Sequence record: OZ035771.1 | Length of the DNA stretch: 64,000 nucleotides | Reading direction: 5' to 3' (one strand) | Source: Phapecoctavirus DIJ07P2 | Shown: positions 2,879 through 33,210 of the stretch, piece by piece | Layout: each line of letters begins with the position of its first letter | How positions within the stretch are numbered: position 1 is the stretch's first letter | Position numbers and translations under genes: made by a program | The notes under the pieces: generated by a model | Seen by the model: only the letters and a program-made list of their open reading frames with translations | Databases searched by the model: none | Told to the model about the DNA's origin: nothing

Positions 2879-2902
2879 TCACAACAGAAGAGAGAAATCA
2901 TC

Positions 2903-3175: not shown

Positions 3176-3178
3176 GGC

Positions 3179-3233
3179 TTGACATTAACGAATAATTTGT
3201 TAATATGTTACATAAAGCGGGAACTATTCCCGC
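3179..3233 (+). promoter_or_regulatory. early promoter / 5' hairpin cassette 3
   Basis: -35 TTGACA 3179, -10 TAATAT 3201, stem GCGGGA/TCCCGC 3217-3233. Confidence 0.55.
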
Positions 3234-3251
3234 TATTTGTAAGGTGGTAGA

Positions 3252-3509: not shown

Positions 3510-3510
3510 T

Positions 3511-4068: not shown

Positions 4069-4122
4069 CATATCGCCGCCACTGGCATAATATTTACCAC
4101 GTAGGGCGGCAATGGTGCCGCT
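4065..4122 (+). promoter_or_regulatory. early promoter / 5' hairpin cassette 4
   Basis: -35 TTGACA 4065 overlapping previous stop, -10 TAATAT 4088, stem GCGGC/GCCGC. Confidence 0.6.
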
Positions 4123-4150
4123 CATAGTGAAATTATGCAAGAGGCTTACA

Positions 4151-4246
4151 ATGATTAATAAAGGAAATAGCTTGACGGTTGGAACGATTAACGCTATCAT
4201 TCTCGCCGTTCCATTTTGGGTTGTAGTAGCGGCTATTATTTTCTAA
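4151..4246 (+). CDS. hydrophobic micro-protein (31 aa, single TM helix)
   Basis: ATG 4151 after AGAGG; MINKGNSLTVGTINAIILAVPFWVVVAAIIF; below 60-aa track cutoff. Confidence 0.45.
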   Translation: MINKGNSLTVGTINAIILAVPFWVVVAAIIF

Positions 4247-4255
4247 AAAATATTC

Positions 4256-4316
4256 TTGACAACGTTTTTTAATCTGATAAGATGTATCACATAGGGCGGC
4301 GGAATACTTCCCCGCC
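4256..4316 (+). promoter_or_regulatory. early promoter / 5' hairpin cassette 5
   Basis: -35 TTGACA 4256, -10 TAAGAT 4278, stem GGCGGCGG/CCCCGCC. Confidence 0.6.
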
Positions 4317-4337
4317 AAAACAAAAAAGGGTAACACA

Positions 4338-4700
4338 ATGAGCAAGCAAATCAATACTATCATGTTTAATCTGGTATCTTTCCGCGATGATATGAAAAAT
4401 TTACCACGTGAAACGGTTGATATTCATGTTTCAGCTTATCGCGCCCTTATTGACATGTTACCGCTAAAACGTGATCAACATGCCGCTAATATGATGCTTA
4501 ATGCTATGCTTAAAAAGATGATTCAAACGGATCTCACCCTGGCATATGAGTATCAAGGGCGCTTATATGCAAATTACAACAGAGCGGTACCTGGTCTGGG
4601 AAGTACTGAAGAGTTGCACGGCTTAAACCTGGATCAAAACACTTGGGATAGTATGCGCCGCGTTATGGTATGGGCCGAAAGCGGTAAAATTTACGAATAA
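4338..4700 (+). CDS. hypothetical protein (120 aa)
   Basis: track ORF directly downstream of cassette 5. Confidence 0.6.
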   Translation: MSKQINTIMFNLVSFRDDMKNLPRETVDIHVSAYRALIDMLPLKRDQHAANMMLNAMLKKMIQTDLTLAYEYQGRLYANYNRAVPGLGSTEELHGLNLDQNTWDSMRRVMVWAESGKIYE

Positions 4701-4706
4701 AAACGG

Positions 4707-4763
4707 TTGACACTGTTTTTTATTCTGGTATAGTTTATCACGTAGGGCGGCAATGGTGCCGCC
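4707..4763 (+). promoter_or_regulatory. early promoter / 5' hairpin cassette 6
   Basis: -35 TTGACA 4707, -10 TATAGT 4729, stem GCGGC/GCCGC. Confidence 0.6.
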
Positions 4764-4783
4764 AACAATAAAAGGTTAACATC

Positions 4784-4963
4784 ATGACCATCATTGCAAA
4801 AACTGAGATTATAGGTTTAGATTCGATCCTCCTGGCTTATGAGGAAACTTTAAAAATGTATGTAGTGACCTATGGTGATTATGTGCGTGAATACGAATAC
4901 ATTGATCTTGCTTTCGAATGTTACATTCGCCAGGTCAATAAAGCCTATAACGATTATCGTTAA
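4784..4963 (+). CDS. hypothetical micro-protein (59 aa)
   Basis: ATG 4784 after AAAGG; 60 codons; below track cutoff. Confidence 0.5.
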   Translation: MTIIAKTEIIGLDSILLAYEETLKMYVVTYGDYVREYEYIDLAFECYIRQVNKAYNDYR

Positions 4964-4982
4964 AAGTTTTAGTCTTATACTA

Positions 4983-5034
4983 TTGACAATGAGTGATAGT
5001 ATAAGCATAATAACTTTTATCGGGAATACTTCCC
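4983..5034 (+). promoter_or_regulatory. early promoter / weak hairpin cassette 7
   Basis: -35 TTGACA 4983; short stem GGGAA/TTCCC 5021-5034. Confidence 0.45.
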
Positions 5035-5059
5035 ACTAACCAAAAAAGAGAGTAATATC

Positions 5060-5425
5060 ATGGCTATTAATATCAATGTTTCCTCTTATGCTACCCTGGC
5101 TGACACGGCTAAAATTGAATTATCCAGCATTGAGGCGGTGCATATTAGCGCCCGTCGTTGGTTTCAACAGTCCTACGGTAACACATATTTTTCTTTAATG
5201 GTTGACGTTGAGATCGGCGGTAAACTGATCGAGGTGGTTAACGTTCCGTTTCAATATGGTTATGGTGATCATTTTGATACCGTCGCCCTGGAAGAATTTA
5301 GCAAGGTTATTAATATGGAAGGTAAAGAGTTTTCACGCGGCGCGTATCTTTCCCGTTTTTGCCGTGATAATGGGATCACTGTATACAGTCATGCGAGCGA
5401 TGTTAAACGTAAAAAAGATTTATAA
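5060..5425 (+). CDS. hypothetical protein (121 aa)
   Basis: track ORF; conserved leader and ATG-GCT start. Confidence 0.6.
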   Translation: MAININVSSYATLADTAKIELSSIEAVHISARRWFQQSYGNTYFSLMVDVEIGGKLIEVVNVPFQYGYGDHFDTVALEEFSKVINMEGKEFSRGAYLSRFCRDNGITVYSHASDVKRKKDL

Positions 5426-5431
5426 AAAGCA

Positions 5432-5490
5432 TTGACAGCACGAATAAAAAGAGTAAACTGTATTACATAGAGAGCGGGAACACTTCCCGC
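5432..5490 (+). promoter_or_regulatory. early promoter / 5' hairpin cassette 8
   Basis: -35 TTGACA 5432, -10 TAAACT ~5455, stem GCGGGAA/TTCCCGC. Confidence 0.55.
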
Positions 5491-5515
5491 CTCACTGAAA
5501 AAAGAGATTAACATC

Positions 5516-5755
5516 ATGGCTAAATCAAAAATGTTCTTAGGTCACAAAAATAAAACTCATTGGAATGTAAGCCTTTGGATTAATAACGATGAATCGTTAT
5601 ATCGGTTGGCGAAAGAATTTATCGCCGCTAATACTAATCGTAATGATGCTGCCCGTGATATGATGTTATTCCTGGAACAAACTGGACAAGATAAAACTCC
5701 AGACGGTTTCAAGTATAGCACTACAGCGATCCGCGCCGCGATGGTTGGAATGTAA
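5516..5755 (+). CDS. hypothetical protein (79 aa)
   Basis: track ORF. Confidence 0.6.
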   Translation: MAKSKMFLGHKNKTHWNVSLWINNDESLYRLAKEFIAANTNRNDAARDMMLFLEQTGQDKTPDGFKYSTTAIRAAMVGM

Positions 5756-5768
5756 AGGAGATATAAAA

Positions 5769-5849
5769 ATGAAACATCGTTCTACCTATCTAACAAAACG
5801 TTTTAGCTTAGATCATAAATTGGGCTATTACGGAAGAAATAGAAAATAA
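5769..5849 (+). CDS. possible micro-ORF (26 aa)
   Basis: ATG 5769 with strong AAGGAG 7 nt upstream. Confidence 0.3.
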   Translation: MKHRSTYLTKRFSLDHKLGYYGRNRK

Positions 5850-5850
5850 T

Positions 5851-5910
5851 TTGACAACGTTTAAAATTAGTGTAAGATGTATCACATAGGGCGGGAAGTG
5901 GTTTCCCGCC
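5851..5910 (+). promoter_or_regulatory. early promoter / 5' hairpin cassette 9
   Basis: -35 TTGACA 5851, -10 TAAGAT 5873, stem GCGGGAA/TTCCCGC. Confidence 0.6.
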
Positions 5911-5932
5911 AACAACAGAGAGATTAAAGATT

Positions 5933-6160
5933 ATGGCTATCAATATTGTTCGCGTATCCGGCACCGTTGGCACTTCCCAAGTTATTGCAGTTGTAACAAA
6001 CAAAAAGATTAATGATGTATGTGAAAGCTTGAATAAGTGGGCTATTGTTAATTTTGGGGAATATGCAAGCGTCGAGTACATCGAATCCTACCAGGTGCCA
6101 ACCATCAGCCTAACCGATCTCAACGTTGATCGCTTGTTGTGCCTGGATGAATTAATCTGA
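5933..6160 (+). CDS. hypothetical protein (75 aa)
   Basis: track ORF. Confidence 0.6.
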   Translation: MAINIVRVSGTVGTSQVIAVVTNKKINDVCESLNKWAIVNFGEYASVEYIESYQVPTISLTDLNVDRLLCLDELI

Positions 6161-6170
6161 AAAAAGATTG

Positions 6171-6227
6171 TTGACACCGGAAAGAAAAAGAGTAGAATAT
6201 ATTACATAGGGCGGCAATGGTGCCGCT
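6171..6227 (+). promoter_or_regulatory. early promoter / 5' hairpin cassette 10
   Basis: -35 TTGACA 6171, -10 TAGAAT 6194, stem GCGGC/GCCGC. Confidence 0.6.
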
Positions 6228-6251
6228 CACAACAGAAGAGAGATTATCACG

Positions 6252-6467
6252 ATGGCTAATATCCGCACTTTACTGAAAAATGCAAGTCAAGTTTTATTTT
6301 CAGATGATGAGTATTTCAATAAAGACATTACAGGCGTGAAAAATTTAAAAGACGTGAAGGATGTTATCGGTATTCGTGGATCTTTACGTAAAGGTGACTA
6401 CTATGGTAACAAGGTGCAATATAAACTGTCAAAGGATTACAATTTTACTTTGACAATTATTTCATAA
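6252..6467 (+). CDS. hypothetical protein (71 aa)
   Basis: track ORF. Confidence 0.6.
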   Translation: MANIRTLLKNASQVLFSDDEYFNKDITGVKNLKDVKDVIGIRGSLRKGDYYGNKVQYKLSKDYNFTLTIIS

Positions 6468-6473
6468 AACCGC

Positions 6474-6536
6474 TTGCAATACTGCAAAAATAAAGTAAAC
6501 TGTATTCATCAAGGCGGTGGAATAGCCAACCGCCTA
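6474..6536 (+). promoter_or_regulatory. early promoter / 5' hairpin cassette 11
   Basis: -35 TTGCAA 6474, -10 TAAACT ~6497, stem AGGCGGT/ACCGCCT. Confidence 0.5.
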
Positions 6537-6558
6537 ACAAAGAGAAGAGGAAAACATC

Positions 6559-6726
6559 ATGATCACTTTCGCTACCCGTGAAGCCGCTCGCAACGTTGCA
6601 CGTAAAGTTAACGCCGCCAACCTGGGCGCTACGCTTAAAGCTCCGGTAAAAGATGAATCAGGCAAATGGATCTTCCCTGGTCTGCGTCATGCTGACAAGT
6701 TAGGTACTTTAAGCCTTAAAAAATAA
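6559..6726 (+). CDS. hypothetical basic micro-protein (55 aa)
   Basis: ATG 6559 after AGAGGAAAAC leader; below track cutoff. Confidence 0.5.
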   Translation: MITFATREAARNVARKVNAANLGATLKAPVKDESGKWIFPGLRHADKLGTLSLKK

Positions 6727-6729
6727 TCG

Positions 6730-6766
6730 TTGACTTTTCGTTATAGCGCCTTACAATGGGCGCTAT
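6730..6766 (+). promoter_or_regulatory. early promoter / hairpin cassette 12 (-10 inside the loop)
   Basis: -35 TTGACT 6730, -10 TACAAT 6752 lying in the loop of stem TAGCGCC/GGCGCTA. Confidence 0.45.
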
Positions 6767-6801
6767 AGAGAAGAGAAACCACTACTAACAAGGAAACCAT
6801 T

Positions 6802-7023
6802 ATGATCACTTTCGCTATTGTCGCCGTTGTTGCTGGTCAAGTTTACGTAAATGAGACATTTACTACAGAAGACAAGGCAGCAGGAGATATAACCGCCGTT
6901 TACAATGAGTGCAAGGCAGTAGAAAGGATGTTAGCGCCTTGTATGCTAATGAGTGAACGCCAGGACGGAATAACAGTATTTACTAACATTGGAACAGGGT
7001 ACCAAATGGTAGTAACAAAATAA
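6802..7023 (+). CDS. hypothetical protein (73 aa)
   Basis: track ORF. Confidence 0.55.
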   Translation: MITFAIVAVVAGQVYVNETFTTEDKAAGDITAVYNECKAVERMLAPCMLMSERQDGITVFTNIGTGYQMVVTK

Positions 7024-7026
7024 AGC

Positions 7027-7083
7027 TTGACACCGATTTAATTTTTAGTAAACTGTTACACGTAGGGCGGGAATAGTTCCCGC
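7027..7083 (+). promoter_or_regulatory. early promoter / 5' hairpin cassette 13
   Basis: -35 TTGACA 7027, -10 TAAACT 7049, stem GCGGGA/TCCCGC 7067-7083. Confidence 0.6.
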
Positions 7084-7102
7084 TCAAAAAGAGAGAAAGA
7101 TC

Positions 7103-7456
7103 ATGAAAGCACAAAATGCAATTAAAGAGTACATCCTTGCCGCTATCGGTTTTAATGATTACGGTATTACAACAGAAAAAGAGAAGATCGCGGAATTGAT
7201 GCGCCGTTTTAATTCCGAGTACTGGTACCCTGATAACCAATCACGTTTTAATTATAGTATTGTTAAAGCACTTGCATCATGGTTACAAGGTTTGCCATCA
7301 GATATTAATATCGCTTTCGAATATTGGGAAGTGGATCGCTTGTTAACATCCTGGGGATACATTAAAGAGAATAGCAGCGATGATAAAATCCAACGAGAAA
7401 GGGAAAATTATTGGCTTTATATTGCAGGCGTGATCCTTGCTTGCTCTTATGAATGA
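7103..7456 (+). CDS. hypothetical protein (117 aa)
   Basis: track ORF. Confidence 0.6.
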   Translation: MKAQNAIKEYILAAIGFNDYGITTEKEKIAELMRRFNSEYWYPDNQSRFNYSIVKALASWLQGLPSDINIAFEYWEVDRLLTSWGYIKENSSDDKIQRERENYWLYIAGVILACSYE

Positions 7457-7462
7457 TAAACC

Positions 7463-7516
7463 TTGACAATTTTACAAAACAGTTTAAATTAACAATATAG
7501 CGGCAATGGTGCCGCT
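7463..7516 (+). promoter_or_regulatory. early promoter / 5' hairpin cassette 14
   Basis: -35 TTGACA 7463; stem AGCGGC/GCCGCT 7499-7516. Confidence 0.5.
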
Positions 7517-7535
7517 CATATAAAGAGGAAACAAA

Positions 7536-7682
7536 ATGAATACATCTAATCGCGCAGAAAAAATTCAATCTTCCAAGATCCGCAAGGCCTGGAACGAGGA
7601 AGTGATCCGCAAAGGCGACAAGCGTAATAAAACAAAGCGCGGGAAGAGTGACAAATATAATTGGATGGATTTAGAGGATTAA
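7536..7682 (+). CDS. basic micro-protein (48 aa)
   Basis: ATG 7536 after AAGAGGAAAC; lysine/arginine-rich; below track cutoff. Confidence 0.5.
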   Translation: MNTSNRAEKIQSSKIRKAWNEEVIRKGDKRNKTKRGKSDKYNWMDLED

Positions 7683-7688
7683 CATAAC

Positions 7689-7716
7689 AAGGGCGCACCA
7701 AGCGCCCTTTCTTTTT
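7689..7716 (+). terminator. rho-independent terminator (conserved hairpin type, copy 1)
   Basis: AAGGGCGCACCAAGCGCCCTT followed by TCTTTTT. Confidence 0.6.
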
Positions 7717-7737
7717 ATATGCAGAGGATAAACAAAG

Positions 7738-7923
7738 ATGACTTTAAACGAGCTTAAAACAGCCTACAACGCAACATTAAAAATAGCCGTGCGTTACCGT
7801 GATGCGTATGGTTTTATCGCGCAGGGCGTGATCCTGGGCTTTTCTGACGATGGTTTGATCTATGTTGATGCACATCACAACAAGGTTAAACCTGAAAACG
7901 TCATTAATATAAAATATCTTTAA
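7738..7923 (+). CDS. hypothetical protein (61 aa)
   Basis: track ORF; AGAGGA RBS. Confidence 0.5.
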   Translation: MTLNELKTAYNATLKIAVRYRDAYGFIAQGVILGFSDDGLIYVDAHHNKVKPENVINIKYL

Positions 7924-7929
7924 AAATGG

Positions 7930-7988
7930 TTGACACCATAACCGGACCTGTTAAACTGTATTACATCAGGCGGGGAATAGTTCCCCAC
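7930..7988 (+). promoter_or_regulatory. early promoter / 5' hairpin cassette 15
   Basis: -35 TTGACA 7930, -10 TAAACT 7952, stem GGGG/CCCC. Confidence 0.5.
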
Positions 7989-8008
7989 CATACAAAAAGG
8001 TAAATATT

Positions 8009-8215
8009 ATGATCACCGCAAAACAAGAAAAAATCATTATCGACGTTGCAGCCGTTGCCGCTATCGCTATTATTGGATCTTATTATGATACCCGTTTCCC
8101 GTCGGCTATGCATGAGGTCGCCGCCGTTGCATCAGTTGGCGTACTGTTTTACGTTGGTAAACGCTATTTATCACCAATGATTAACAAGCTGACACCGTGG
8201 AAAAATAAAGGTTGA
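8009..8215 (+). CDS. small membrane protein (68 aa)
   Basis: track ORF; hydrophobic stretches. Confidence 0.55.
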   Translation: MITAKQEKIIIDVAAVAAIAIIGSYYDTRFPSAMHEVAAVASVGVLFYVGKRYLSPMINKLTPWKNKG

Positions 8216-8266
8216 TCCTGTTTTACATTATGTTATAGTTATCGTGTAGGGCGGCAATGGTGCCGC
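8212..8266 (+). promoter_or_regulatory. early promoter / 5' hairpin cassette 16
   Basis: -35 TTGATC 8212, -10 TATAGT 8234, stem GGCGGC/GCCGC. Confidence 0.5.
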
Positions 8267-8286
8267 GCCCCTTTGAGGATGCAATC

Positions 8287-8571
8287 ATGAGTAAAGCTAA
8301 CACCGTGCTAATGTTTTCCCTGATTAATGATCTCGCTTACTTGTCCAACATGACGCAGGAGGGTAACACATTAACGGCAACATTCACCAATAAGCTTGAC
8401 CGAGTGATCATCGTCTCACTGAAAACAGTTAGTAAAGGCTTTTACTTGTTAGCTTATCATTGTATCACTGATACCGATGAGACAAGCCAGGACTATAGCG
8501 CCCCTTTCCCTGAATCAATGGCACGGGAGATCATCGCCGCCGTTGTAAATGATGGTTTGTTTACTGCATAA
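8287..8571 (+). CDS. hypothetical protein (94 aa)
   Basis: track ORF 8257..8571 trimmed to ATG 8287. Confidence 0.55.
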   Translation: MSKANTVLMFSLINDLAYLSNMTQEGNTLTATFTNKLDRVIIVSLKTVSKGFYLLAYHCITDTDETSQDYSAPFPESMAREIIAAVVNDGLFTA

Positions 8572-8589
8572 AATAATTTAGAAAAAGGC

Positions 8590-8646
8590 TTGCAATCATT
8601 TTGAGATAGTGTATATTTAATTCATAGGGCGGCGGGAATAGTTCCC
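8590..8646 (+). promoter_or_regulatory. early promoter / 5' hairpin cassette 17
   Basis: -35 TTGCAA 8590, -10 TATATT 8612, stem GGGAA/TTCCC. Confidence 0.45.
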
Positions 8647-8669
8647 AAAGCAAACGAGAGGATTACACG

Positions 8670-8789
8670 ATGAGCAAGTACACAGTAGAATACACGGTAG
8701 AGAATCCGGCAGTATCCGAAGGTAAAAAGATGACATTTACCATCAGTATAATCGCTTTCGTTGTCACTATCTTATCAATCATCTTATAA
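8670..8789 (+). CDS. hydrophobic micro-protein (39 aa)
   Basis: ATG 8670 after GAGAGG; C-terminal TM segment; below track cutoff. Confidence 0.45.
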   Translation: MSKYTVEYTVENPAVSEGKKMTFTISIIAFVVTILSIIL

Positions 8790-8799
8790 GGTGCACACC

Positions 8800-8961
8800 A
8801 TGAAAACAACAGATATTATCAAAGAGATCGCCCTTGCCGCTGGCGTTGAGATCGAGGAAGTGATCGCGCTCAATCTTACAGAAAACGATCTGCGCAACTA
8901 TGAAGCGGAAAGCGTGAAAGCAAGTGGCGCGGTCCTGGCATATAATCCGGCTAACAAATAG
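8800..8961 (+). CDS. hypothetical micro-protein (53 aa)
   Basis: track ORF 8761..8961 trimmed to ATG 8800. Confidence 0.45.
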   Translation: MKTTDIIKEIALAAGVEIEEVIALNLTENDLRNYEAESVKASGAVLAYNPANK

Positions 8962-8962
8962 T

Positions 8963-9017
8963 TTGACAAGCTGAATCAACCTGATAAGATGTATCACATA
9001 GGGGCGACAAGCGCCCC
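8963..9017 (+). promoter_or_regulatory. early promoter / 5' hairpin cassette 18
   Basis: -35 TTGACA 8963, -10 TAAGAT 8985, stem GGGGCG/CGCCCC. Confidence 0.6.
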
Positions 9018-9038
9018 GCCTAACAGAGAGATAGAATC

Positions 9039-9317
9039 ATGACCATCGCCAAATTATCCGCCGAAGAAATCGAACAAGTGCTAACTACTAACCTGGAACA
9101 ATGGAAACGTGAGGCAGATATACAATCAGCACAATGGCTTAACGAGAAGTTAACACCGGATGATCTGAGTAAGATTATAGATCCTCAATTCTACGAAGAT
9201 ATTCACGACACCGTTTTAAGCGTCGAGGATGTACTTGATAAGCATTATATTGCTACTGATTTGCAGGTTTACGGGCGTAAAAACTTTATTACTATTCACG
9301 ACATTTACAATAACTAA
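9039..9317 (+). CDS. hypothetical protein (92 aa)
   Basis: track ORF. Confidence 0.6.
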   Translation: MTIAKLSAEEIEQVLTTNLEQWKREADIQSAQWLNEKLTPDDLSKIIDPQFYEDIHDTVLSVEDVLDKHYIATDLQVYGRKNFITIHDIYNN

Positions 9318-9325
9318 GGGATAAC

Positions 9326-9454
9326 ATGAATCCGAAAGATATGCAAGCATGGAAAGGGTACGACGATCTAAGCGCCTTGCGCAATAAGTCAAGCCGTAAC
9401 CTTAGACGGTTAGAAGCAAAGAAAAAGAAAAAACAGTTTGACAAGTCCGCTTAA
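9326..9454 (+). CDS. basic micro-protein (42 aa)
   Basis: ATG 9326 after TAAGGGATAAC; end overlaps next promoter; below track cutoff. Confidence 0.4.
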   Translation: MNPKDMQAWKGYDDLSALRNKSSRNLRRLEAKKKKKQFDKSA

Positions 9455-9494
9455 TCTGGTAAAGTGTATCTCGTAGGGCGGCAATGATGCCGCT
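9438..9494 (+). promoter_or_regulatory. early promoter / 5' hairpin cassette 19
   Basis: -35 TTGACA 9438, -10 TAAAGT 9460, stem GGCGGC/GCCGC (loop AATGAT). Confidence 0.55.
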
Positions 9495-9514
9495 CACAAG
9501 AAGAGAGAAAAATC

Positions 9515-9799
9515 ATGAAGATCACAAAAAGCCTAACTAATTATGCAGCACGTCGCGGATTATGCTTAACCGTTGAAAACTCAGGGAAAGAAGACTTTTT
9601 GTGTTTTTGGGAGCTTGAAAATGATTGCGAGTGGATGTTTTCTTATTCTATCTGCGAAGATCAAAACGGTTGTTTGTTAACCTGGCGCGGTAATATCTAT
9701 TTACCGGAAGAAATTAAAGAAGAGTTACCAGGTACGATCATGACAGAGAGACAGCTTAAGGAAGTGATCAATTTTGTAGGGCAAAACATTAAAAAATAA
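9515..9799 (+). CDS. hypothetical protein (94 aa)
   Basis: track ORF. Confidence 0.6.
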   Translation: MKITKSLTNYAARRGLCLTVENSGKEDFLCFWELENDCEWMFSYSICEDQNGCLLTWRGNIYLPEEIKEELPGTIMTERQLKEVINFVGQNIKK

Positions 9800-9800
9800 T

Positions 9801-9862
9801 TTGACAGCACGCAAACAACGTAGTAAAGTTTACCACATAGGGCGGCGGAATGGTCCACCGCT
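9801..9862 (+). promoter_or_regulatory. early promoter / 5' hairpin cassette 20
   Basis: -35 TTGACA 9801; CACATAGGGCGG box; GC stem ~9841-9862. Confidence 0.55.
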
Positions 9863-9884
9863 CACAACAGAAGAGAAACAAATC

Positions 9885-10055
9885 ATGATCCCGACTATGT
9901 TTTATGTATCGCGCAAAGGTCACAATATTTTTTGGTCTGAAGATTTAAATGAAGCCATGACGTTTGCCCGTGATCGTGTTGCTATCGGTGGCGTTAACAT
10001 CACCGTAACCGATGAAAATGGCATTGAATACTATAACGGCGACGATGAAGAGTAA
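9885..10055 (+). CDS. hypothetical micro-protein (56 aa)
   Basis: track ORF 9801..10055 trimmed to ATG 9885. Confidence 0.5.
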   Translation: MIPTMFYVSRKGHNIFWSEDLNEAMTFARDRVAIGGVNITVTDENGIEYYNGDDEE

Positions 10056-10062
10056 TTAATAA

Positions 10063-10082
10063 GGCGGGGAATACTTCCCGCC
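10063..10082 (+). other. orphan GC hairpin of the cassette type, no promoter
   Basis: GGCGGGGAATACTTCCCGCC directly after a stop codon with no -35/-10 upstream. Confidence 0.5.
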
Positions 10083-10121
10083 ACGCAGTGAATTTTCCGT
10101 TTGGGAAGTAAAAAATAAATC

Positions 10122-10182
10122 TTGACGATAATTTGTTATCTGATAGAATGTATTTCGTAGGGCGGGGCAATAAGGCAAGCCC
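10122..10182 (+). promoter_or_regulatory. early promoter / 5' hairpin cassette 21
   Basis: -35 TTGACG 10122, -10 TAGAAT 10144, TCGTAGGGCGG box. Confidence 0.55.
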
Positions 10183-10199
10183 ACAAAGAGGAAAATAAA

Positions 10200-10568
10200 A
10201 TGAGCAAATCAGCAATTAAAGCACTTGAAAAAGCACAAGAAGTGATCGCAACGTCAACCACTGGCGCAAAGGTTAATCTCGTTTGTTATCTGACAGATGA
10301 AACTATCCGTAAAAATTGGCGTAATGCTGATTTACTGGCTTGCTTATTGATTAATAGTGTCGCTAATGCTTTCCAGTGTGAAACAGCCGAGAGCCTGGAG
10401 GAAAACTTGTTTGATAATATGGATCAAGCCATTGAAACCTATATACAATCAAACCTGGATAGCTGGAACAGTAAAACATGGCCCGACAATTTACGCGATA
10501 CAACTGATCAACTGATCCGCCTTGCCCTGATGGTTGAACGCGATAACGTTTACAACAGCACAAAGTAA
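10200..10568 (+). CDS. hypothetical protein (122 aa)
   Basis: track ORF. Confidence 0.6.
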   Translation: MSKSAIKALEKAQEVIATSTTGAKVNLVCYLTDETIRKNWRNADLLACLLINSVANAFQCETAESLEENLFDNMDQAIETYIQSNLDSWNSKTWPDNLRDTTDQLIRLALMVERDNVYNSTK

Positions 10569-11169: not shown

Positions 11170-11199
11170 CCCGAACAATGTTGATAGCTTTCGCCTATG

Positions 11200-11680
11200 A
11201 AAAACCGACACAGAACAAAACTGAATAAATCGCGGTATCGAGCTAATCAACCAGCAAACGAATAACCATACCTCCCAGGGTTACAGGCTGTTAGAGAGCC
11301 ATTTAGAGCGGTTAAAATCGATCAACAACCAACAACAAACCATCAAAAACACCCTTTTACCTCCTTTCTAGTGCAATGATAACCATTATCATCTACCCAT
11401 GATTATCTATGCAATATAAGCGCATAATTATAATGTTGATAATAGTTCGCAACAACTAACCAACAAACAACATAAAACAATAAGCAAACTAATCATAATC
11501 AAAGGAATAATAGCAAGATGATTGATAACGACAAACAATCGAACCATGATGAATACTAAGCAAGATAACGATAACACGACAAAACAACCAACTAACGAAC
11601 AATAACAAACGAAACCATTAAAATAATAACTATTAGCAAAATAGTGCCTGAATGAAATCATTACAAAACGAATCATTCAC
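11200..11680. repeat. A+C-rich, strand-asymmetric low-complexity tract
   Basis: plus strand dominated by CAA/ACA/AAC repeats with very few G; no credible ORF. Confidence 0.5.
11372..11390. promoter_or_regulatory. Fur-box-like 19-mer
   Basis: TGCAATGATAACCATTATC; 3' 15 nt match Fur consensus at 14/15. Confidence 0.35.
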
Positions 11681-11699
11681 AGAGTCATCATTAGCACGC

Positions 11700-12060
11700 T
11701 ATGCCGGACACATAGCGAGCTAATAATAAGCCAACTACACCCCAACAATCATAACCATCGGTGACGGTTATTTCTTGTTACTGCGTAGCTTGCAATAATT
11801 GCAAGCGTAATGACGCTTACACTTATTGCGCTGGCTTATTATTAGCATTATATGTAATTACCAAGATCATAACATTAGCGCAATAACAATAGTCATTGTA
11901 ATAATTACATGAGTTATCACTATCGTTCAGTGTGATCATCATTAGCACAGTGAATAATTGCACGTAGCAACATGAGCGAATAGCGACAGGTTGCATAGTG
12001 TGCACATAGTGTATAAACATACAAGAAAATAAAGGCTAATCTTTTGGGGGCGAATACTAT
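11700..12060. repeat. cluster of palindromes and inverted repeats
   Basis: GCTAATAATAAGCC (11718) / GGCTTATTATTAGC (11838); CTTGCAAT-A-ATTGCAAG; AGCGT-AATG-ACGCT; ACAAT-AGTC-ATTGT; ATAGTGT direct repeat. Confidence 0.5.
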
Positions 12061-12150
12061 CGCGTAGCGATATGTTGAGCACCTTCTCTTAAACGTAAAT
12101 AAAATCAGAAAATTCTTGATTTATTTTAGTTTTTATGTTAATAAACGTTT

Positions 12151-12169
12151 AAATAATAATCATTCTCAT
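12151..12169. promoter_or_regulatory. Fur-box-like 19-mer
   Basis: AAATAATAATCATTCTCAT, 14/19 to Fur consensus. Confidence 0.3.
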
Positions 12170-12328
12170 ATAAATAATAGTCTGCTTGTCATGAGCGGGA
12201 TTAGTTGACAATGTTCCGTCATATGATGAAGTTGCCAAGCCATTGATAAATAAGTGTTTGTGTGATTTATAATCAGGTGGCCCACCTTGTCGCTATGTTG
12301 GCATGAGCCTTGCATAAGTCATTGAATA

Positions 12329-12350
12329 CGAATGATAATTATTCTCATTC
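12329..12350. promoter_or_regulatory. Fur-box-like palindrome
   Basis: CGAATGATAATTATTCTCATTC, near-perfect palindrome, 14/19 to Fur consensus. Confidence 0.35.
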
Positions 12351-12690
12351 GCATGATATTTGGGAATTGTCGCTGCGTGGACCTGACGGCCCGAAAATTC
12401 GCGTTAAGCACTTCTTACGTATACGCCATGATTTTTGCCATATGATATTGATTCTATTAGATATTCTTGCCATTATTGCCATGAAACATGGTGTCCCGAA
12501 ATAATCTCTCCCCGTAGATATTTTGGGTTACTTTTTATACAAGAGTGGGGTGTCAAAAATAATCAGTATATATGGGATAATTGATAGGAATCCCCTATGA
12601 TAATTCGATTGTAATTCCCTAAGATTGATCGTATGATGTTGGTGATTGATGATTGCCATGAAAGATGGCTAACGATGAGAGGAGATTGTC

Positions 12691-13065
12691 ATGCAAGAGA
12701 GTAAAAATGTTCCGTTGAGTAGTGCAACATTGCTTCGCTTCTATAAAGCATGGATTGCCAACTATCCTGCAATGAATCGCACAACGAGTGGCTTATGTGG
12801 TTGTCTGGTAGATTATGTAAATGATTTTGTTGGTGAGACAACTAGAGAAGAAGATAGAAGATGGCGGGATAGTTTGTTGGACCGTTTGAAATATGAAATG
12901 AGGAAACAATTTACATGTGCAGGGCTGGACTATAATCTTCCGTTCAATGCAGATTGCATGGATTACCTTTCAGAGTGTATAAACTTGGCGTGTCATACCA
13001 ACACGTTACGTCTTCAGTGGGTGAAAGACAGAATTGAAGATGCAAATAATGCTTGCATTGAATAA
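12691..13065 (+). CDS. hypothetical protein, paralog family A
   Basis: motifs GLCGCL and LRLQWVKDRIEDA shared with 13796, 16543 and 17800 genes. Confidence 0.55.
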   Translation: MQESKNVPLSSATLLRFYKAWIANYPAMNRTTSGLCGCLVDYVNDFVGETTREEDRRWRDSLLDRLKYEMRKQFTCAGLDYNLPFNADCMDYLSECINLACHTNTLRLQWVKDRIEDANNACIE

Positions 13066-13550: not shown

Positions 13551-13799
13551 TTGTGTGCAATGATCACACCACAACAGAATGAAGCAGCAATGGATCTTCT
13601 TGATAGTTTGTATTTCGATAATTGGTACTCTGAATGTGAATGGATGAATATGCAAACTCTGAAAGAGAAGACAAAAGCGTTGATTACAGTAGATCAATTT
13701 CTTGCAGAGACGGAAAGAATGAATTATGATATGGCATCTCGCGCACGACGCGTTTCCATTTTCAATAAAATGTTAGCATTATGGGGAGGTAGAAAATGA
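13551..13799 (+). CDS. hypothetical protein (82 aa)
   Basis: track ORF. Confidence 0.5.
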   Translation: MCAMITPQQNEAAMDLLDSLYFDNWYSECEWMNMQTLKEKTKALITVDQFLAETERMNYDMASRARRVSIFNKMLALWGGRK

Positions 13800-14023
13800 G
13801 ACAATTCACTATACTGGAAGCACATGTGCAATGTGTTGCAGATTATGTCAAAGAACATTCAAGTTTGTTGGATGTAACCTGTGCAGTGCAAAATGATGTA
13901 GGTATTGTCTGTGTGCAACATATCCTATCTGAAACTCGTTACGAAGTATTCCGTGCTACCTTGTTTGGATGTGATCGTGTGAACTGGGTAAAAGAACGTG
14001 TAGCAGAAGAAATAATTGGTTGA
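13796..14023 (+). CDS. hypothetical protein, paralog family A (short form)
   Basis: C-terminal CDRVNWVKERVAEE motif. Confidence 0.5.
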   Translation: MRQFTILEAHVQCVADYVKEHSSLLDVTCAVQNDVGIVCVQHILSETRYEVFRATLFGCDRVNWVKERVAEEIIG

Positions 14024-15179: not shown

Positions 15180-15392
15180 ATGAAGGCACATTACCCTCAT
15201 CCCTTTGATCCTAAAAACAAAGCCGTAATTCTTCGTCAGTGGCAACGGGTTTGTCGTACTAAATGTCCAATTAATAGCCAACACAATGTGGACAAGGATT
15301 ATCTTGGGACATTTGTTGAATACACTTACATAGACAAAAACAAGCGTAAACAACATGTCGAGGAATACTGCTTAAAAGTAGAATGGCTGTAA
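15180..15392 (+). CDS. hypothetical protein (70 aa)
   Basis: track ORF, ATGA overlap with previous gene. Confidence 0.45.
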   Translation: MKAHYPHPFDPKNKAVILRQWQRVCRTKCPINSQHNVDKDYLGTFVEYTYIDKNKRKQHVEEYCLKVEWL

Positions 15393-15404
15393 ATAATAAA
15401 TACC

Positions 15405-15433
15405 TTGACAAGTGTTTATTCGTTTTGTAAAGT
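15405..15433 (+). promoter_or_regulatory. sigma70-like promoter upstream of recombinase
   Basis: TTGACA 15405, 17-nt spacer, TAAAGT. Confidence 0.4.
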
Positions 15434-15462
15434 GAGAATACAGCAATGGTTTAGGAGTGGTT

Positions 15463-16134
15463 ATGAAAAAGTTTGTTGTTTACAGTCGTCTTTCTAAACA
15501 GAAAAAAGGTGAGGCACAATATGGTATGGAGAGCCAAGAGAACGATATCCGTTACTTCTTAGACTCTGTGCCTGATGCTGAAGTTATTGGTCAATTTTCT
15601 GAATACTATTCGGGTAAGGGCGATTGGAAGCAACGTAAGGAACTGGTTAAAGCGGTTGAAATGTGTAAAGCTACCGGAGCAACTTTATTGGTAGCTAAAG
15701 TTGACCGCTTGGGTCGTAACAACGCATCCGTAGCAACTCTTCTAGAAATGATTGATGTTAAGATAGCCATCATGCCAGACGCAGATAAAATGGTTATACA
15801 GCTTCTGTCTGTTCTGGCTGAACAAGAAGTTAGAGGTATTGCTGATCGTATTAAAAAGGGTCTTGCTGTAGCAAAAAGCAAAGGTGTTTTATTAGGCAGT
15901 GCTAATCCTAAAACTGCTGCTGCACGTAGAAAAGGAAAAATGGAATACAATTCTGTTAAAGCAGACGCTTTTGCAGAGACATTTCGTGAACGCTTGGAGA
16001 TCCTTAGAGATTTAAATACACCTTACAAAACTATTGCTGAAAAATTCAATAGTAAGAAAATAGCAACAGCACGTGGTGGTAAATGGGATGCTAAAACTGT
16101 TTCTCGTTTGTGTGCCAGACTTAACATTAAATAG
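15463..16134 (+). CDS. serine recombinase (resolvase/invertase family)
   Basis: YSRLSK nucleophile context, VDRLGRN motif, VLAEQEVRGIADRIKKG helix; track ORF 15457 trimmed to ATG 15463 after AGGAG. Confidence 0.65.
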   Translation: MKKFVVYSRLSKQKKGEAQYGMESQENDIRYFLDSVPDAEVIGQFSEYYSGKGDWKQRKELVKAVEMCKATGATLLVAKVDRLGRNNASVATLLEMIDVKIAIMPDADKMVIQLLSVLAEQEVRGIADRIKKGLAVAKSKGVLLGSANPKTAAARRKGKMEYNSVKADAFAETFRERLEILRDLNTPYKTIAEKFNSKKIATARGGKWDAKTVSRLCARLNIK

Positions 16135-16142
16135 GAGAGGAT

Positions 16143-16565
16143 ATGAAACAAGAAAATGAATCTGTAGATCACTTAATCATGCTGTCAGCCCTTTTTGCCG
16201 GATGGGACGTATTTTTTGAAAATTTATTCAATTCTGCTACAGATGGTTCCGATTTTATGCGGCAGTTTAAACGACGAACTGTTGAGGACTATGCTTTCTA
16301 TTCAGGTCGGATTGAAAAAGGTTACGAAGATACAAATACAACACTCACCATTAAAGTTTTAGATGTGATGTTTAGTGTTATAGATGCTATCGACGAAAGT
16401 CTTCCGATCCTAGACAATTGTAATACGAAAGCCTATGTTTACAAAATAGCTCGTGCTTATGTGTCTGCAAACAGTTGTCTTCTTTCCACCCAGATTGCCG
16501 TGAACAATCTTGCCAACTTGTTTGACGAAGGAGAAACTTTTTATGACAATCGATTTGAAGTGTAA
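16143..16565 (+). CDS. hypothetical protein (140 aa)
   Basis: track ORF. Confidence 0.5.
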   Translation: MKQENESVDHLIMLSALFAGWDVFFENLFNSATDGSDFMRQFKRRTVEDYAFYSGRIEKGYEDTNTTLTIKVLDVMFSVIDAIDESLPILDNCNTKAYVYKIARAYVSANSCLLSTQIAVNNLANLFDEGETFYDNRFEV

Positions 16566-16908
16566 GAGGATTCTTTTAGATTTCTATAATAATTGGTTAG
16601 AACACCTCCGTCTCTTTCCAAGAGAAAGTGGTTACGCTGATGTTGGCTTATGCCGAGGTCTGCGTATGTATATAAGTGATGAATTTCGGGCCGAGCATTC
16701 TTTAGCATATTCTGTTTATGGTATGCAATTAGCCAGTTTTGAAAACGCTGGCTTAGATACAACTTTCCCATTTAACACAGCAAAATCTTTTGAGCAAGAG
16801 TGTAAGGAAAAACGTTGCATGTTTAATGAAAAACGTGTACAGTGGGTTAAGGATCGAGTTAAACAACTGGAACAAGAGTTGGATTTCTTTTATGACGAGG
16901 CAGAATAA
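16543..16908 (+). CDS. hypothetical protein, paralog family A
   Basis: GLCRGL and EKRVQWVKDRVKQLEQ motifs; track ORF 16510 trimmed to ATG 16543 (GAAGGAG RBS). Confidence 0.5.
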   Translation: MTIDLKCKRILLDFYNNWLEHLRLFPRESGYADVGLCRGLRMYISDEFRAEHSLAYSVYGMQLASFENAGLDTTFPFNTAKSFEQECKEKRCMFNEKRVQWVKDRVKQLEQELDFFYDEAE

Positions 16909-17799: not shown

Positions 17800-18208
17800 T
17801 TGCACCCCGTTCTGCGGGGTGTTATTGTATACGTAAAGGAGGCGCTAATGTATTACACTGAAGACTACATATTGTATAACTTTTTTAAAGGCTGGTTGAA
17901 ATGGGCTGAACAAGCTCCTGTCGGAGATTGTGTTTTTCCTTGGGATTCTCGTCAAGGTTTGTGTCGTTGTTTGGAAGATTGGCTTATAACCACAAACTAC
18001 AACTCAGAAACTAAGAAATCTACATCACAGAGACTAAAAAATGTTATTTGAAGAAGATGGTTTAGATCCGATTTATCCTTTCGGTGAGGAAAGTTTCCAC
18101 AATGGTCTTTTCCTTGGCACTCAACATTATGATAAAGATCGTGTAGATTGGGTAAAAGAAAAGGTAGCACAGTATGAATGGGGGTTAAGAATTATCACCG
18201 CTGGTTAG
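17800..18208 (+). pseudogene. paralog family A member split by a frameshift in an A6 run (or sequencing indel)
   Basis: GLCRCL motif in ORF 17800..18051, LDPIYPFGEE and DRVDWVKEKV motifs in the next frame (18041..18208); junction at CTAAAAAATG 18034-18043. Confidence 0.45.
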
Positions 18209-32962: not shown

Positions 32963-33210
32963 AATCCCTCCTTAAAAATACTCCCTCCGAGAAGGGAGTA
33001 TAAGTATATCACGTAGTTGTTATGTTGTCTTCTTGGATACCAGAATCCACTTCTGCAAACATATCTTCTGCACTGTAATTATTTCCAGTCCAGCGTGATA
33101 GAAGGATAGCACCAATCTCTTTTGCATGAGATTCAGACTCCGCATAAACGTTAGTCCCAGTGTCACCTTTTTCTTTTCATGTGCATAAATGCAGTAATAA
33201 TTGTAAGCCA

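What the first reader, a model, noticed from the sequence alone, without database searches (positions are those of the whole stretch)
15405..16134. Serine recombinase with its own promoter inside a lytic-phage-like module
The 223-aa protein has the resolvase/invertase catalytic domain (YSRLSK, VDRLGRN, conserved E-helix) plus a C-terminal extension, and a TTGACA-17-TAAAGT promoter upstream. No inverted repeats flanking an invertible segment and no att-like sequence are visible within the window, so its substrate is unknown.
Basis: partly seen in the sequence, partly recalled or inferred. Interest (0 to 1): 0.5.

Follow-up and report, generated by a model that had tools for sequence, protein, structure and literature searches.

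The report
Core serine recombinase of virulent coliphage
This is a real, intact small serine recombinase gene with its own host-type promoter in a strictly lytic phAPEC8-like coliphage; it appears to be kept by essentially the whole phage subfamily, yet no invertible segment, integration site or prophage copy exists, so it most likely joins or separates copies of the phage's own DNA, a function nobody has tested.

Summary
Observation confirmed. Window 15463-16134 (+) encodes a 223-aa serine recombinase. The catalytic residues Y7, R9, S11, R58, D81, R82 and R85 are invariant across the family and gamma-delta resolvase. The AlphaFold model has pLDDT 90 and matches Sin, gamma-delta and Bxb1. A TTGACA-17-TAAAGT promoter and an AGGAG ribosome-binding site lie upstream.

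The window is a Phapecoctavirus, a ~150-kb virulent myovirus. The protein is 100% identical in 62 phage records, and all nucleotide differences seen are synonymous. Orthologues occur in roughly all ~132 Stephanstirmvirinae records and, in conserved synteny, in marine Vibrio and Shewanella phages. In Phapecoctavirus the gene has moved from the DNA-metabolism cluster to the early cluster, 3.4 kb from the left physical genome end.

I found no evidence for an invertase or an integrase:
- No repeat pairs in the complete phAPEC8 genome.
- Four complete genomes are fully collinear.
- No copy in 5,426 E. coli genomes or in 185,579 species representatives.

Full-length relatives sit on 5.8-6.4-kb plasmids, where such enzymes usually resolve multimers.

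Best guess (about 0.4): a resolvase-type enzyme acting on a site that is single-copy per genome, circularising or monomerising phage DNA. The substrate is unidentified. It is a known kind of enzyme and of moderate interest.

The parts
15405..15433 (+). Sigma-70-type promoter: TTGACA (15405-15410), 17-nt spacer, TAAAGT (15428-15433).
   Evidence: By eye, a sigma-70-like -35/-10 pair is present at the same position upstream of all 13 orthologues in L002-L014, although the flanking sequence is not conserved. No nucleotide differs between the window, phAPEC8 and nieznany across 15380-15462.
15453..15457 (+). Shine-Dalgarno sequence AGGAG, five nucleotides before the ATG.
   Evidence: Read directly from the sequence.
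15463..16134 (+). Serine recombinase CDS, 223 aa plus stop. The catalytic serine S11 is the TCT codon at 15493-15495.
   Evidence: The protein is 100% identical in 62 phage records. The 10-11 nucleotide differences from phAPEC8 and nieznany are all at third codon positions.
15475..15888 (+). Catalytic (Resolvase, PF00239) domain, residues 5-142, including the E-helix at residues 109-139 (15787-15879).
   Evidence: Pfam E=5e-18. AlphaFold2 secondary structure, mean pLDDT 89.9. Foldseek matches to Sin, gamma-delta resolvase and TP901-1 catalytic domains at E 1e-5 to 1e-7.
15907..16119 (+). C-terminal four-helix DNA-binding domain, residues 149-219. It is related to the N-terminal part of the large-serine-recombinase 'Recombinase' domain. 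There is no zinc ribbon and no coiled coil.
   Evidence: PF07508 matches sub-threshold in this protein (E=0.003, residues 187-216, profile positions 19-48 of 102). It matches in 25 of 45 family members, best E=5.9e-6, and PF20552 'Recombinase-like HTH' matches in 2. The longest Foldseek alignments are with the Bxb1 and other large serine integrases (252-260 columns).
12078..12406 (.). Direct terminal repeat of the virion DNA, 328-329 bp, marking the physical genome ends. This is a candidate location (inferred, not shown) for a recombination site that exists in two copies only in virion DNA.
   Evidence: The linear GenBank records of Schickermooser and WPEC6 each carry an identical 329- or 328-bp repeat at both ends. 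These map to window 12078-12406 and 12078-12405. The Schickermooser paper reports a 328-bp terminal repeat (PMC6563267).
11170..12690 (.). A 1.5-kb ORF-free region containing the terminal repeat. It is one of only two sizeable ORF-free stretches in the early part of the window, the other being ~1400-1930. It is a candidate region for cis-acting sites (inferred).
   Evidence: No CDS is annotated in the homologous stretch of phAPEC8 or nieznany. Many GenBank records open or close inside it.
32963..33020 (-). Empty ancestral position of the recombinase gene. It lies between the homologues of the two small genes that flank the recombinase in Justusliebigvirus.
   Evidence: tblastn of the BME3 flanking proteins against the window and phAPEC8. 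Synteny of loci L003-L014.

Best explanation
The gene encodes a catalytically competent small serine recombinase. It has a resolvase-type catalytic domain, an E-helix, and a ~75-aa helical DNA-binding domain related to the first part of the recombinase domain of large serine integrases.

It is a vertically inherited, apparently core gene of the virulent Stephanstirmvirinae myoviruses and their marine relatives. It is probably transcribed by host RNA polymerase from its own promoter, and so probably early in infection.

The most likely mechanism is resolvase-like. The enzyme recognises one site per phage genome. Two directly repeated copies of that site therefore exist only in terminally redundant virion DNA, in replicative dimers, or in concatemers. 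Recombination between them circularises the incoming linear genome or reduces multimers to unit circles. This is the job Cre/loxP does for P1 and that res/resolvase systems do for small plasmids.

Shown: the identity and integrity of the enzyme, purifying selection, wide conservation across the subfamily, the promoter-like motif at every orthologue, the absence of repeats, inversions and prophage copies, and the position of the physical ends.

Inferred: early timing, activity on phage DNA, one site per genome, and the location of that site. Candidate locations are the 328-bp terminal repeat at 12078-12406 or elsewhere in the ORF-free region 11170-12690.
For: - Active enzyme: Y7, R9, S11, R58, D81, R82 and R85 are invariant across 45 relatives and gamma-delta resolvase. 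The AlphaFold model is confident and matches the serine-recombinase fold.
- Selection: the protein is identical in 62 records. All 10 differences from phAPEC8 and all 11 from nieznany are third-codon-position and synonymous.
- Apparent core gene of a lytic lineage: recombinase hits (~131 records) roughly match the count of Stephanstirmvirinae-grade capsid hits (64+50+18 = 132). The neighbourhood (PhoH, HslV-like, methyltransferase, DprA-like) is conserved out to Vibrio-type and Shewanella phages at 35-44% identity.
- Its own promoter-like motif is present at all 13 orthologues, and is preceded by a terminator-like hairpin in L010 and L012.
- The function does not depend on adjacent DNA: the gene moved between clusters in Phapecoctavirus and was still retained.
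- Single-copy-site logic: the complete phAPEC8 genome has no direct or inverted repeat pair apart from the early-region repeat families (which the direct-repeat listing filtered out), one palindrome, and three 20-22-bp matches between hairpin sequences, one a pair of terminator-like hairpins. Four complete genomes are fully collinear.
- Not an integrase: no hit in 5,426 E. coli genomes, and no close relative in 185,579 species representatives.
- Family precedent: full-length relatives at 36-40% identity sit on 5.8-6.4-kb non-mobilizable plasmids downstream of ~650-680 bp without annotated genes. This is the usual layout of multimer-resolution systems.
- The virion DNA has 328-bp terminal repeats, and the gene starts 3.4 kb from the left end.
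Against: - No recombination site has been identified, and nothing links the enzyme to the terminal repeat or to any other sequence.
- The 70-nt region upstream of the gene is too short for a res-like site and is not conserved between genera. This differs from plasmid and transposon resolvases, whose site adjoins the gene.
- From general knowledge, phages with short exact terminal repeats such as T7 replicate without circularising, and concatemers are the normal packaging substrate. A monomerising activity is therefore not obviously useful.
- The related Vequintavirinae manage without this gene.
- In ICP1 the 30% homologue was found in only two isolates, inside a variable island. Reference ICP1 nevertheless appears to circularise (PMC7145576).
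- Early timing is inferred only from promoter-like motifs.
Confidence: 0.4

Rival explanations
1. It is a DNA invertase of the Gin/Cin/Hin type. It flips a segment of the phage genome, for example a tail-fibre or promoter cassette, to vary phenotype.
For: PHROG 125 is named 'DNA invertase', and many GenBank records carry that label. From general knowledge, the phages Mu and P1 carry small serine invertases. Very short sites (about 14 bp) could escape a repeat search.
Against: No inverted-repeat pair flanks a segment in the window or in the complete phAPEC8 genome. The only hits there are one palindrome and two 20-22-bp hairpin matches, one a pair of terminator-like hairpins. Four complete Phapecoctavirus genomes from different sources show no HSP of 60 nt or more in opposite orientation. 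Tail-fibre genes form one co-directional block. The gene changed neighbourhood without carrying an adjacent segment. The Hin/Gin-type HTH_7 domain does not match.
Confidence: 0.07
2. It acts on DNA that is not the phage's own. The target would be a site in the host chromosome, a prophage, a satellite or a defence island, rearranged or excised early in infection for host takeover or counter-defence.
For: Expression from a host-type promoter in all lineages. There is no need for a cis site next to the gene. No repeated site exists in the phage genome. In ICP1 the homologue was found only in two isolates, inside a variable island; from general knowledge, such islands often hold counter-defence genes.
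Against: Conservation across phages of E. coli, Klebsiella, Vibrio and Shewanella would require a target conserved in, or co-evolving with, very different hosts. There is no direct evidence for any host target.
Confidence: 0.15
3. It is a selfish or recently mobile promoter-plus-gene cassette, a self-mobilising serine recombinase, with little benefit to the phage.
For: The gene occupies different positions in Phapecoctavirus and in all other lineages, leaving a clean empty site. It travels with its own promoter. Relatives are scattered over plasmids and many viral contigs. It is accessory in ICP1.
Against: Only one relocation is seen over a deep phylogeny. Otherwise synteny is stable from E. 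coli phages to Shewanella phages. The gene is present in roughly all Stephanstirmvirinae records. Nucleotide divergence within the gene (~1.5%) is similar to that of the flanks, so there is no sign of a recent sweep. Purifying selection is strict. No terminal repeats or duplicated target sites were noticed at the gene borders.
Confidence: 0.1
4. It is an integrase or plasmid-maintenance recombinase serving a rare lysogenic, pseudolysogenic or carrier state.
For: The C-terminal domain is related to that of large serine integrases. In IMG/VR, 405 stretches encode relatives, and most of the 80 best loci lie on contigs under 60 kb, a size compatible with temperate phages; their lifestyle was not examined.
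Against: No copy in 5,426 complete E. coli genomes, even at blastn sensitivity. No close relative in 185,579 species representatives. The protein lacks the zinc-ribbon and coiled-coil domain that, from general knowledge, large serine integrases need for att-site synapsis and directionality. The phages are described as strictly lytic with no prophage matches (PMC10282059).
Confidence: 0.06
5. It no longer recombines DNA and serves only as a sequence-specific DNA-binding regulator.
For: No substrate was found. A 9-N8-9 dyad, AATAAATAC-N8-GTGTTTATT, overlaps its own -35 element.
Against: All catalytic residues, including the nucleophilic serine, are invariant over relatives down to ~30% identity. 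That would not be expected for a purely binding role. The dyad is not conserved in the 75%-identical orthologue and is weakly supported statistically.
Confidence: 0.05

Closest known systems
Plasmid and transposon resolvases (Tn3/gamma-delta TnpR, Sin, beta, RP4 ParA)
   Same: The catalytic domain and E-helix have the same catalytic residues. The fold matches Sin and gamma-delta resolvase. Size is similar, about 200-220 aa. Full-length relatives at 36-40% identity sit on 5.8-6.4-kb plasmids, preceded by ~650-680 bp without annotated genes.
   Different: The C-terminal DNA-binding domain is not the HTH_7 type. About 10 residues between the last strand and the E-helix are missing. There is no res-like region next to the gene: only 70 nt upstream, not conserved between genera. 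The host replicon is a virulent phage.
Phage DNA invertases Gin (Mu), Cin (P1), and Hin/Pin
   Same: They are small serine recombinases encoded by phages or prophages. The catalytic fold is the same, with weak sequence matches to DNA-invertase chains 4m6f and 3uj3.
   Different: There is no invertible segment, no flanking inverted repeats, and no orientation polymorphism among isolates. The DNA-binding domain differs. The gene is not adjacent to a fixed substrate.
Large serine recombinases / phage integrases (Bxb1, phiC31, TP901-1)
   Same: The helical domain after the E-helix matches the first part of their recombinase domain (PF07508 positions 19-48). The longest structural alignments are to the Bxb1 and other large serine integrases.
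   Different: The protein is 223 aa against roughly 450-600 aa for the integrase chains matched. It lacks the rest of the recombinase domain, the zinc ribbon and the coiled coil. There is no lysogeny and no prophage copy.
P1 Cre/loxP (functional analogue only)
   Same: This is the proposed job, not a homology. From general knowledge of P1, a phage-encoded site-specific recombinase acts on a single site per genome to cyclise terminally redundant DNA and resolve dimers, and loxP lies a few kb from the packaging start. Here the gene lies 3.4 kb from the physical end.
   Different: Cre is a tyrosine recombinase with an unrelated fold. P1 is temperate and needs Cre mainly for plasmid-prophage stability. 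No site has been found here.
IS607-type serine transposases
   Same: The serine recombinase catalytic domain matches structurally, for example 6dgc. The gene has changed position once.
   Different: From general knowledge of IS607, those proteins place a MerR-like DNA-binding domain before the catalytic domain. Here the order is the reverse. No multiple copies or element ends were seen.

Membership tests
Serine recombinase superfamily (Pfam PF00239 Resolvase) | Nucleophilic serine in the N-terminal Y-x-R-x-S motif | tested here: met
   Y7, R9 and S11 are invariant in 45 relatives and align with Y6/R8/S10 of gamma-delta resolvase.
Serine recombinase superfamily (Pfam PF00239 Resolvase) | Conserved active-site Arg/Asp set (gamma-delta R45, D67, R68, R71) and the acidic residue at position 36 | tested here: met
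   R58, D81, R82 and R85 are invariant. Position 36 is Glu (E47) instead of Asp, and this is Glu or Asp throughout the family.
Serine recombinase superfamily (Pfam PF00239 Resolvase) | Alpha/beta catalytic fold followed by a long E-helix | tested here: met
   Pfam score 66 bits against a 23.3-bit cut-off. AlphaFold2 mean pLDDT 89.9 with helix 109-139. Foldseek probability 1.00 to Sin, gamma-delta and TP901-1 catalytic domains.
Serine recombinase superfamily (Pfam PF00239 Resolvase) | Site-specific strand exchange activity | not testable with these tools
   This needs biochemical or in vivo recombination assays.
Small resolvase/invertase subgroup (Tn3, gamma-delta, Hin, Gin) | C-terminal HTH_7-type DNA-binding domain (PF02796) | tested here: not met
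   There is no PF02796 match in the protein or in any of 45 relatives. PF07508 matches in 25 and PF20552 in 2 instead.
Small resolvase/invertase subgroup (Tn3, gamma-delta, Hin, Gin) | Substrate next to the gene: a res site upstream, or an invertible segment bounded by inverted repeats | tested here: not met
   The upstream gap is 70 nt and is not conserved. There are no inverted-repeat pairs in the window or the whole genome. Four genomes are collinear. The gene relocated without its neighbours.
Large serine recombinases (phage integrases) | Complete recombinase domain plus zinc-ribbon/coiled-coil domain, total about 450-600 aa | tested here: not met
   The protein is 223 aa. Only profile positions 19-48 of 102 of PF07508 match, below the gathering score. 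No zinc-ribbon family matches. The model shows four short helices after the E-helix.
Large serine recombinases (phage integrases) | Integration into a host attB, seen as prophage copies | tested here: not met
   No match in 5,426 complete E. coli genomes. No close relative in one genome per 185,579 species.
IS607-like serine transposases | DNA-binding domain N-terminal to the catalytic domain; element present in several copies | tested here: not met
   The catalytic domain is N-terminal. The gene is single-copy in each genome.
Single-site multimer-resolution or cyclisation systems (functional class: Cre/loxP, plasmid res) | One specific site per replicon, recombined when present twice in direct repeat | tested here: inconclusive
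   The absence of any repeated site, plasmid-borne relatives and a 328-bp terminal repeat are all compatible with this class. No site was identified.

The most novel reading that the evidence does not exclude
This would be a minimal (223-aa) serine recombinase that a strictly virulent phage needs immediately after injection. It would recombine a site inside the 328-bp terminal repeat (window 12078-12406), or in the conserved multi-hairpin element beside it (11697-11846), to circularise the linear genome or to set up the switch to rolling-circle replication. That would be a serine-type counterpart of Cre/loxP operating in a lytic cycle.
Probability: 0.15. Interest if true: 0.65.

Novelty: new member of a known kind. 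Interest (0 to 1): 0.35.

Why it matters
Phapecoctaviruses and Justusliebigviruses are being developed for phage therapy and biocontrol. Recombinase genes are routinely treated as warning signs of a temperate lifestyle in safety screens (PMC10282059). Here the gene appears to be a core gene of a virulent lineage, it lacks the integrase-specific domains, and it has no prophage copy. It should therefore not be read as a lysogeny marker.

Biologically, it is an unexplained but clearly selected activity in the early phase of a large lytic phage. Finding its site would show how these terminal-repeat genomes are processed after entry. It could also provide a very small serine recombinase and site pair for genome engineering.

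Tried and rejected
- Inverted repeat I2 (15450-15474 against 50897-50921, 88%) is the ribosome-binding site plus ATGAAAAAG of two genes. My rough estimate is that a few such matches arise by chance in 64 kb, so I rejected it.
- The dyad AATAAATAC-N8-GTGTTTATT over the -35 element was considered as an operator or crossover site. It has no second good copy in the window and is not conserved in the 75%-identical orthologue.
- The 'repeat_region' annotated in phage nieznany is a 44-bp repeat inside a paralogous gene, not a terminus.
- The BME3 GenBank record, with a PhageTerm-derived repeat of 342 bp, turned out to contain an 861-bp tandem duplication around the repeat. I used it only to locate the homologous region.
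- ICP1 as an experimental proxy fails. The 30% homologue was found in two isolates only, inside a variable island.
- Rfam finds nothing in window 1-24000 at E up to 0.1.
- Neighbouring genes have no known function and include no obvious accessory factor.
- NCBIfam gives only far sub-threshold hits: YneB, XisF, Mpi, CcrB.
- GC skew simply follows transcription direction.
- The literature contains only annotation-level remarks. One paper asserts a concatemer-resolving role without data.

Full report
**The observation**

The ORF runs from the ATG at 15463 to the stop at 16134 on the + strand and encodes 223 aa. AGGAG lies five nucleotides before the ATG. The protein matches Pfam Resolvase (PF00239, E=5e-18, residues 5-142), PHROG 125 'DNA invertase' (E=2.6e-32), and solved Tn3 and gamma-delta resolvase chains.

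In alignments with 18 and then 44 relatives, Y7, R9, S11, R58, D81, R82 and R85 are invariant. These residues line up with its Y6, R8, S10, R45, D67, R68 and R71. Position 36 is Glu instead of Asp.

An AlphaFold2 model built on 45 sequences is confident, with mean pLDDT 89.9. It shows the alpha/beta catalytic core, a long E-helix (residues 109-139) and four further helices. Foldseek finds Sin, gamma-delta and TP901-1 catalytic domains. The longest alignments are with the Bxb1 and other large serine integrases.

On its own it is not above chance (43 sites found against 37 expected). However, by eye all 13 orthologous loci have a sigma-70-like -35/-10 pair at the same place, although the sequence around it differs. 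In two loci a terminator-like hairpin precedes it.

**What the window is**

The window is about 97% identical to Escherichia phage phAPEC8, genus Phapecoctavirus, subfamily Stephanstirmvirinae. This is a ~150-kb myovirus described as strictly lytic. The window corresponds to phAPEC8 141140 through the record junction to 61326. It therefore covers the early small-gene block, an ORF-free region, the DNA-metabolism block and the tRNA cluster. The recombinase lies in the rightward block of small genes of unknown function.

**Selection and distribution**

The protein is 100% identical in 62 phage records. Against phAPEC8 and nieznany the gene carries 10 and 11 nucleotide differences (~1.5%, similar to the flanks). 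All are at third codon positions and none changes the protein. The promoter region has no difference at all.

Recombinase hits comprise 62 at >=99% identity, 2 at 80-90%, 7 at 60-80%, and then Justusliebigvirus and Klebsiella phages at 52-58%. These roughly match in number the 64 + 50 + 18 records found with the phAPEC8 major head protein at >=80% identity. The gene therefore appears to be a core gene of the subfamily, although I did not intersect the accession lists. Vequintavirinae (capsid ~42% identical) do not appear among the recombinase hits.

Orthologues at 35-44% identity occur in Shewanella phages 1/4 and 1/40 and in two ~150-kb viral contigs. GenBank Vibrio phages match at 38%.

**Position**

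In Justusliebigvirus, in those two contigs and in the Shewanella phages, the gene lies in the DNA-metabolism cluster. In most of these loci it sits just downstream of a 169-aa DNA methyltransferase, and in all of them near PhoH-, HslV- or DprA-like genes. In Phapecoctavirus, both the window and the 75%-identical lineage L002, that site is empty (window ~32963-33020). The gene sits instead in the early block behind a DUF7202 gene.

This means one relocation occurred in a deep tree, with the gene retained afterwards. Whatever it acts on need not be next to it.

**Search for a substrate**

- The window has no inverted-repeat pair bounding a segment.
- A self-comparison of the complete phAPEC8 genome gives 29 short matches. 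Most fall among the early-region repeat families. The only others are one palindrome and three 20-22-bp matches between hairpin sequences, one of them a pair of terminator-like hairpins.
- Four complete Phapecoctavirus genomes from Belgium, Iran, the USA and one unstated source align to each other only in one orientation. There is no opposite-strand HSP of 60 nt or more.
- The 70-nt upstream gap is not conserved between genera.
- There is no match to the gene in 5,426 complete E. coli genomes, and no close relative in one genome from each of 185,579 species.

An invertase with a flipping segment and an integrase are therefore both poorly supported.

**Family clues**

The C-terminal domain is not the HTH_7 of resolvases and invertases. 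PF07508, the 'Recombinase' domain of large serine integrases, matches its first part in 25 of 45 relatives. PF20552 'Recombinase-like HTH' matches in two. The zinc ribbon and coiled coil are absent.

Full-length relatives at 36-40% identity sit on very small non-mobilizable plasmids: 5.8 kb in Klebsiella and Marinovum, 6.4 kb in Synechococcus. In the two I inspected the gene follows ~650-680 bp without annotated genes. From general knowledge, this is the usual layout of a multimer-resolution system.

**Genome ends**

A 1.5-kb ORF-free region (11170-12690) lies 2.8 kb upstream of the gene. Many GenBank records start or stop inside it. Two independent linear records, Schickermooser from Germany and WPEC6 from Thailand, carry identical 329- and 328-bp repeats at both ends. 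These map to window 12078-12406. The Schickermooser paper reports a 328-bp terminal repeat (PMC6563267), and BME3 of the sister genus a 342-bp one (PMC12210895).

The recombinase ATG is therefore 3.4 kb from the left physical end, and the gene reads inward.

**Interpretation**

The enzyme is active-looking, strongly selected, apparently core to a virulent lineage and independently promoted. It is not tied to neighbouring DNA, and its genome shows no repeated site, no inversion and no integration.

The reading that fits best is a resolvase-type enzyme with one site per genome. It would have two sites to work on only in terminally redundant virion DNA, in dimers or in concatemers. It would then circularise or monomerise phage DNA, as Cre/loxP does in P1 and res systems do in plasmids.

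I put this at about 0.4. No site was found. From general knowledge, short-repeat phages such as T7 do not need to circularise. Close relatives that lack the gene cope without it.

The rivals are action on host or competitor DNA (0.15), a largely selfish cassette (0.10), an invertase with very short sites (0.07), a rare integration or carrier state (0.06), and a non-catalytic regulator (0.05).

**Comparison and novelty**

It works like, and is a member of, the serine recombinase superfamily. It fails the defining features of the Hin/Gin-Tn3 subgroup (HTH_7 domain, adjacent substrate), of large serine integrases (full C-terminal domains, integration), and of IS607 transposases (domain order).

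GenBank records already label it variously as recombinase, resolvase, invertase, and, wrongly, as a methionine ABC transporter protein. One paper asserts a concatemer role without data. It is a new, uncharacterised member of a known kind, and interest is moderate.

Noticed in passing
window 12078-12406: These are the physical genome ends. The 328-329-bp direct terminal repeat found in the linear records of Schickermooser and WPEC6 maps here. The window therefore spans the junction of the right and left virion ends (PMC6563267).
   Followed up: yes
window ~11697-11846 (outer stem 11719-11733 with 11832-11846; central palindrome GCTTGCAA-TAA-TTGCAAGC at about 11790-11808): A conserved multi-hairpin element lies ~230 bp left of the terminal repeat. 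Its structure is a 15-bp outer stem enclosing three hairpins, preceded by a fourth. Across six sequences from Phapecoctavirus, Justusliebigvirus and Klebsiella phages, 97% of cells are paired against 19-51% when partners are slid. 11 of 51 pairs show changes on both sides, and the covariation score is 0.209 against 0.083 in shuffles (0 of 500 reach it). Nearly all pairs are Watson-Crick, so either strand could fold. It could be a replication origin, a packaging signal, a structured RNA, or a protein-binding cruciform. There is no Rfam match.
   Followed up: partly
window 1826-1844, 1855-1873, 1884-1902, 11375-11393, 12152-12170, 12331-12349: Six 19-bp palindromes of the form AATGATAATnATTcTCATT occur, against ~0.3 distinct sites expected by chance (one search counts 12 strand-matches against 0.61). 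From my own knowledge they closely resemble the E. coli Fur box consensus GATAATGATAATCATTATC. Three are spaced 29 bp apart in one ORF-free region, and two lie inside the terminal repeat. The same motif recurs in the homologous region of Justusliebigvirus BME3. They may be iron-responsive control of early events or binding sites for a phage protein.
   Followed up: partly
window 11333-11607: The A/C-rich part of the ORF-free region contains three weakly similar units spaced 128 bp apart (CAACnAAC... motifs). They may be iteron-like.
   Followed up: no
window ~2550-10200: A family of early promoter units is repeated more than a dozen times. Each has TTGACA, 17 nt, TAAGAT-like, then GTATCACATAGGGCGG...CCGCC, a conserved G+C hairpin at the predicted 5' end of the transcript. 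One unit precedes almost every small early gene. phAPEC8 annotates parts of these as PHIRE and MEME promoters.
   Followed up: no
window 12691-13065, 16510-16908; probably also 13796-14023 and 17800-18208: Paralogous small proteins (phrog_2510, unknown function) end in a shared (Q/N/D)WVK(D/E)(R/K)(I/V) motif. They are scattered around the recombinase gene, with further copies in the Justusliebigvirus early region.
   Followed up: no
window 32963-33020 (- strand) versus 15380-16140: The recombinase gene with its promoter has moved from the DNA-metabolism cluster, where all other lineages have it, to the early cluster in Phapecoctavirus. It left a clean ~58-nt intergenic gap.
   Followed up: yes
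window 1575-1784: Two 72-nt AT-rich direct repeats (82% identical, 138 nt apart) lie in a second ORF-free stretch (~1400-1930), just upstream of the three tandem Fur-box-like sites.
   Followed up: no
L083/L084 (PP239276.1, phage BME3): This GenBank record contains an 861-bp tandem duplication around its annotated 342-bp terminal repeat, and its last 342 nt repeat its first 342 nt. This is probably an assembly artefact of the true ends.
   Followed up: partly
L085 (MW794144.1, ICP1 isolate 2017_DRC_48) 7001-7756: A 30%-identical homologue of the recombinase was found in only two ICP1 records, inside a block of genes that do not carry the old gp numbers, between gp30 and gp41. In ICP1 the gene is therefore accessory.
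   Followed up: partly
GenBank records listed (for example OR352956.1, LR597654.1, MT496970.1): Several records list 'methionine ABC transporter ATP-binding protein' as the annotated feature under the recombinase match. In nieznany a similar label is attached to the 70-aa DUF7202 gene upstream. This looks like a propagated annotation error.
   Followed up: no
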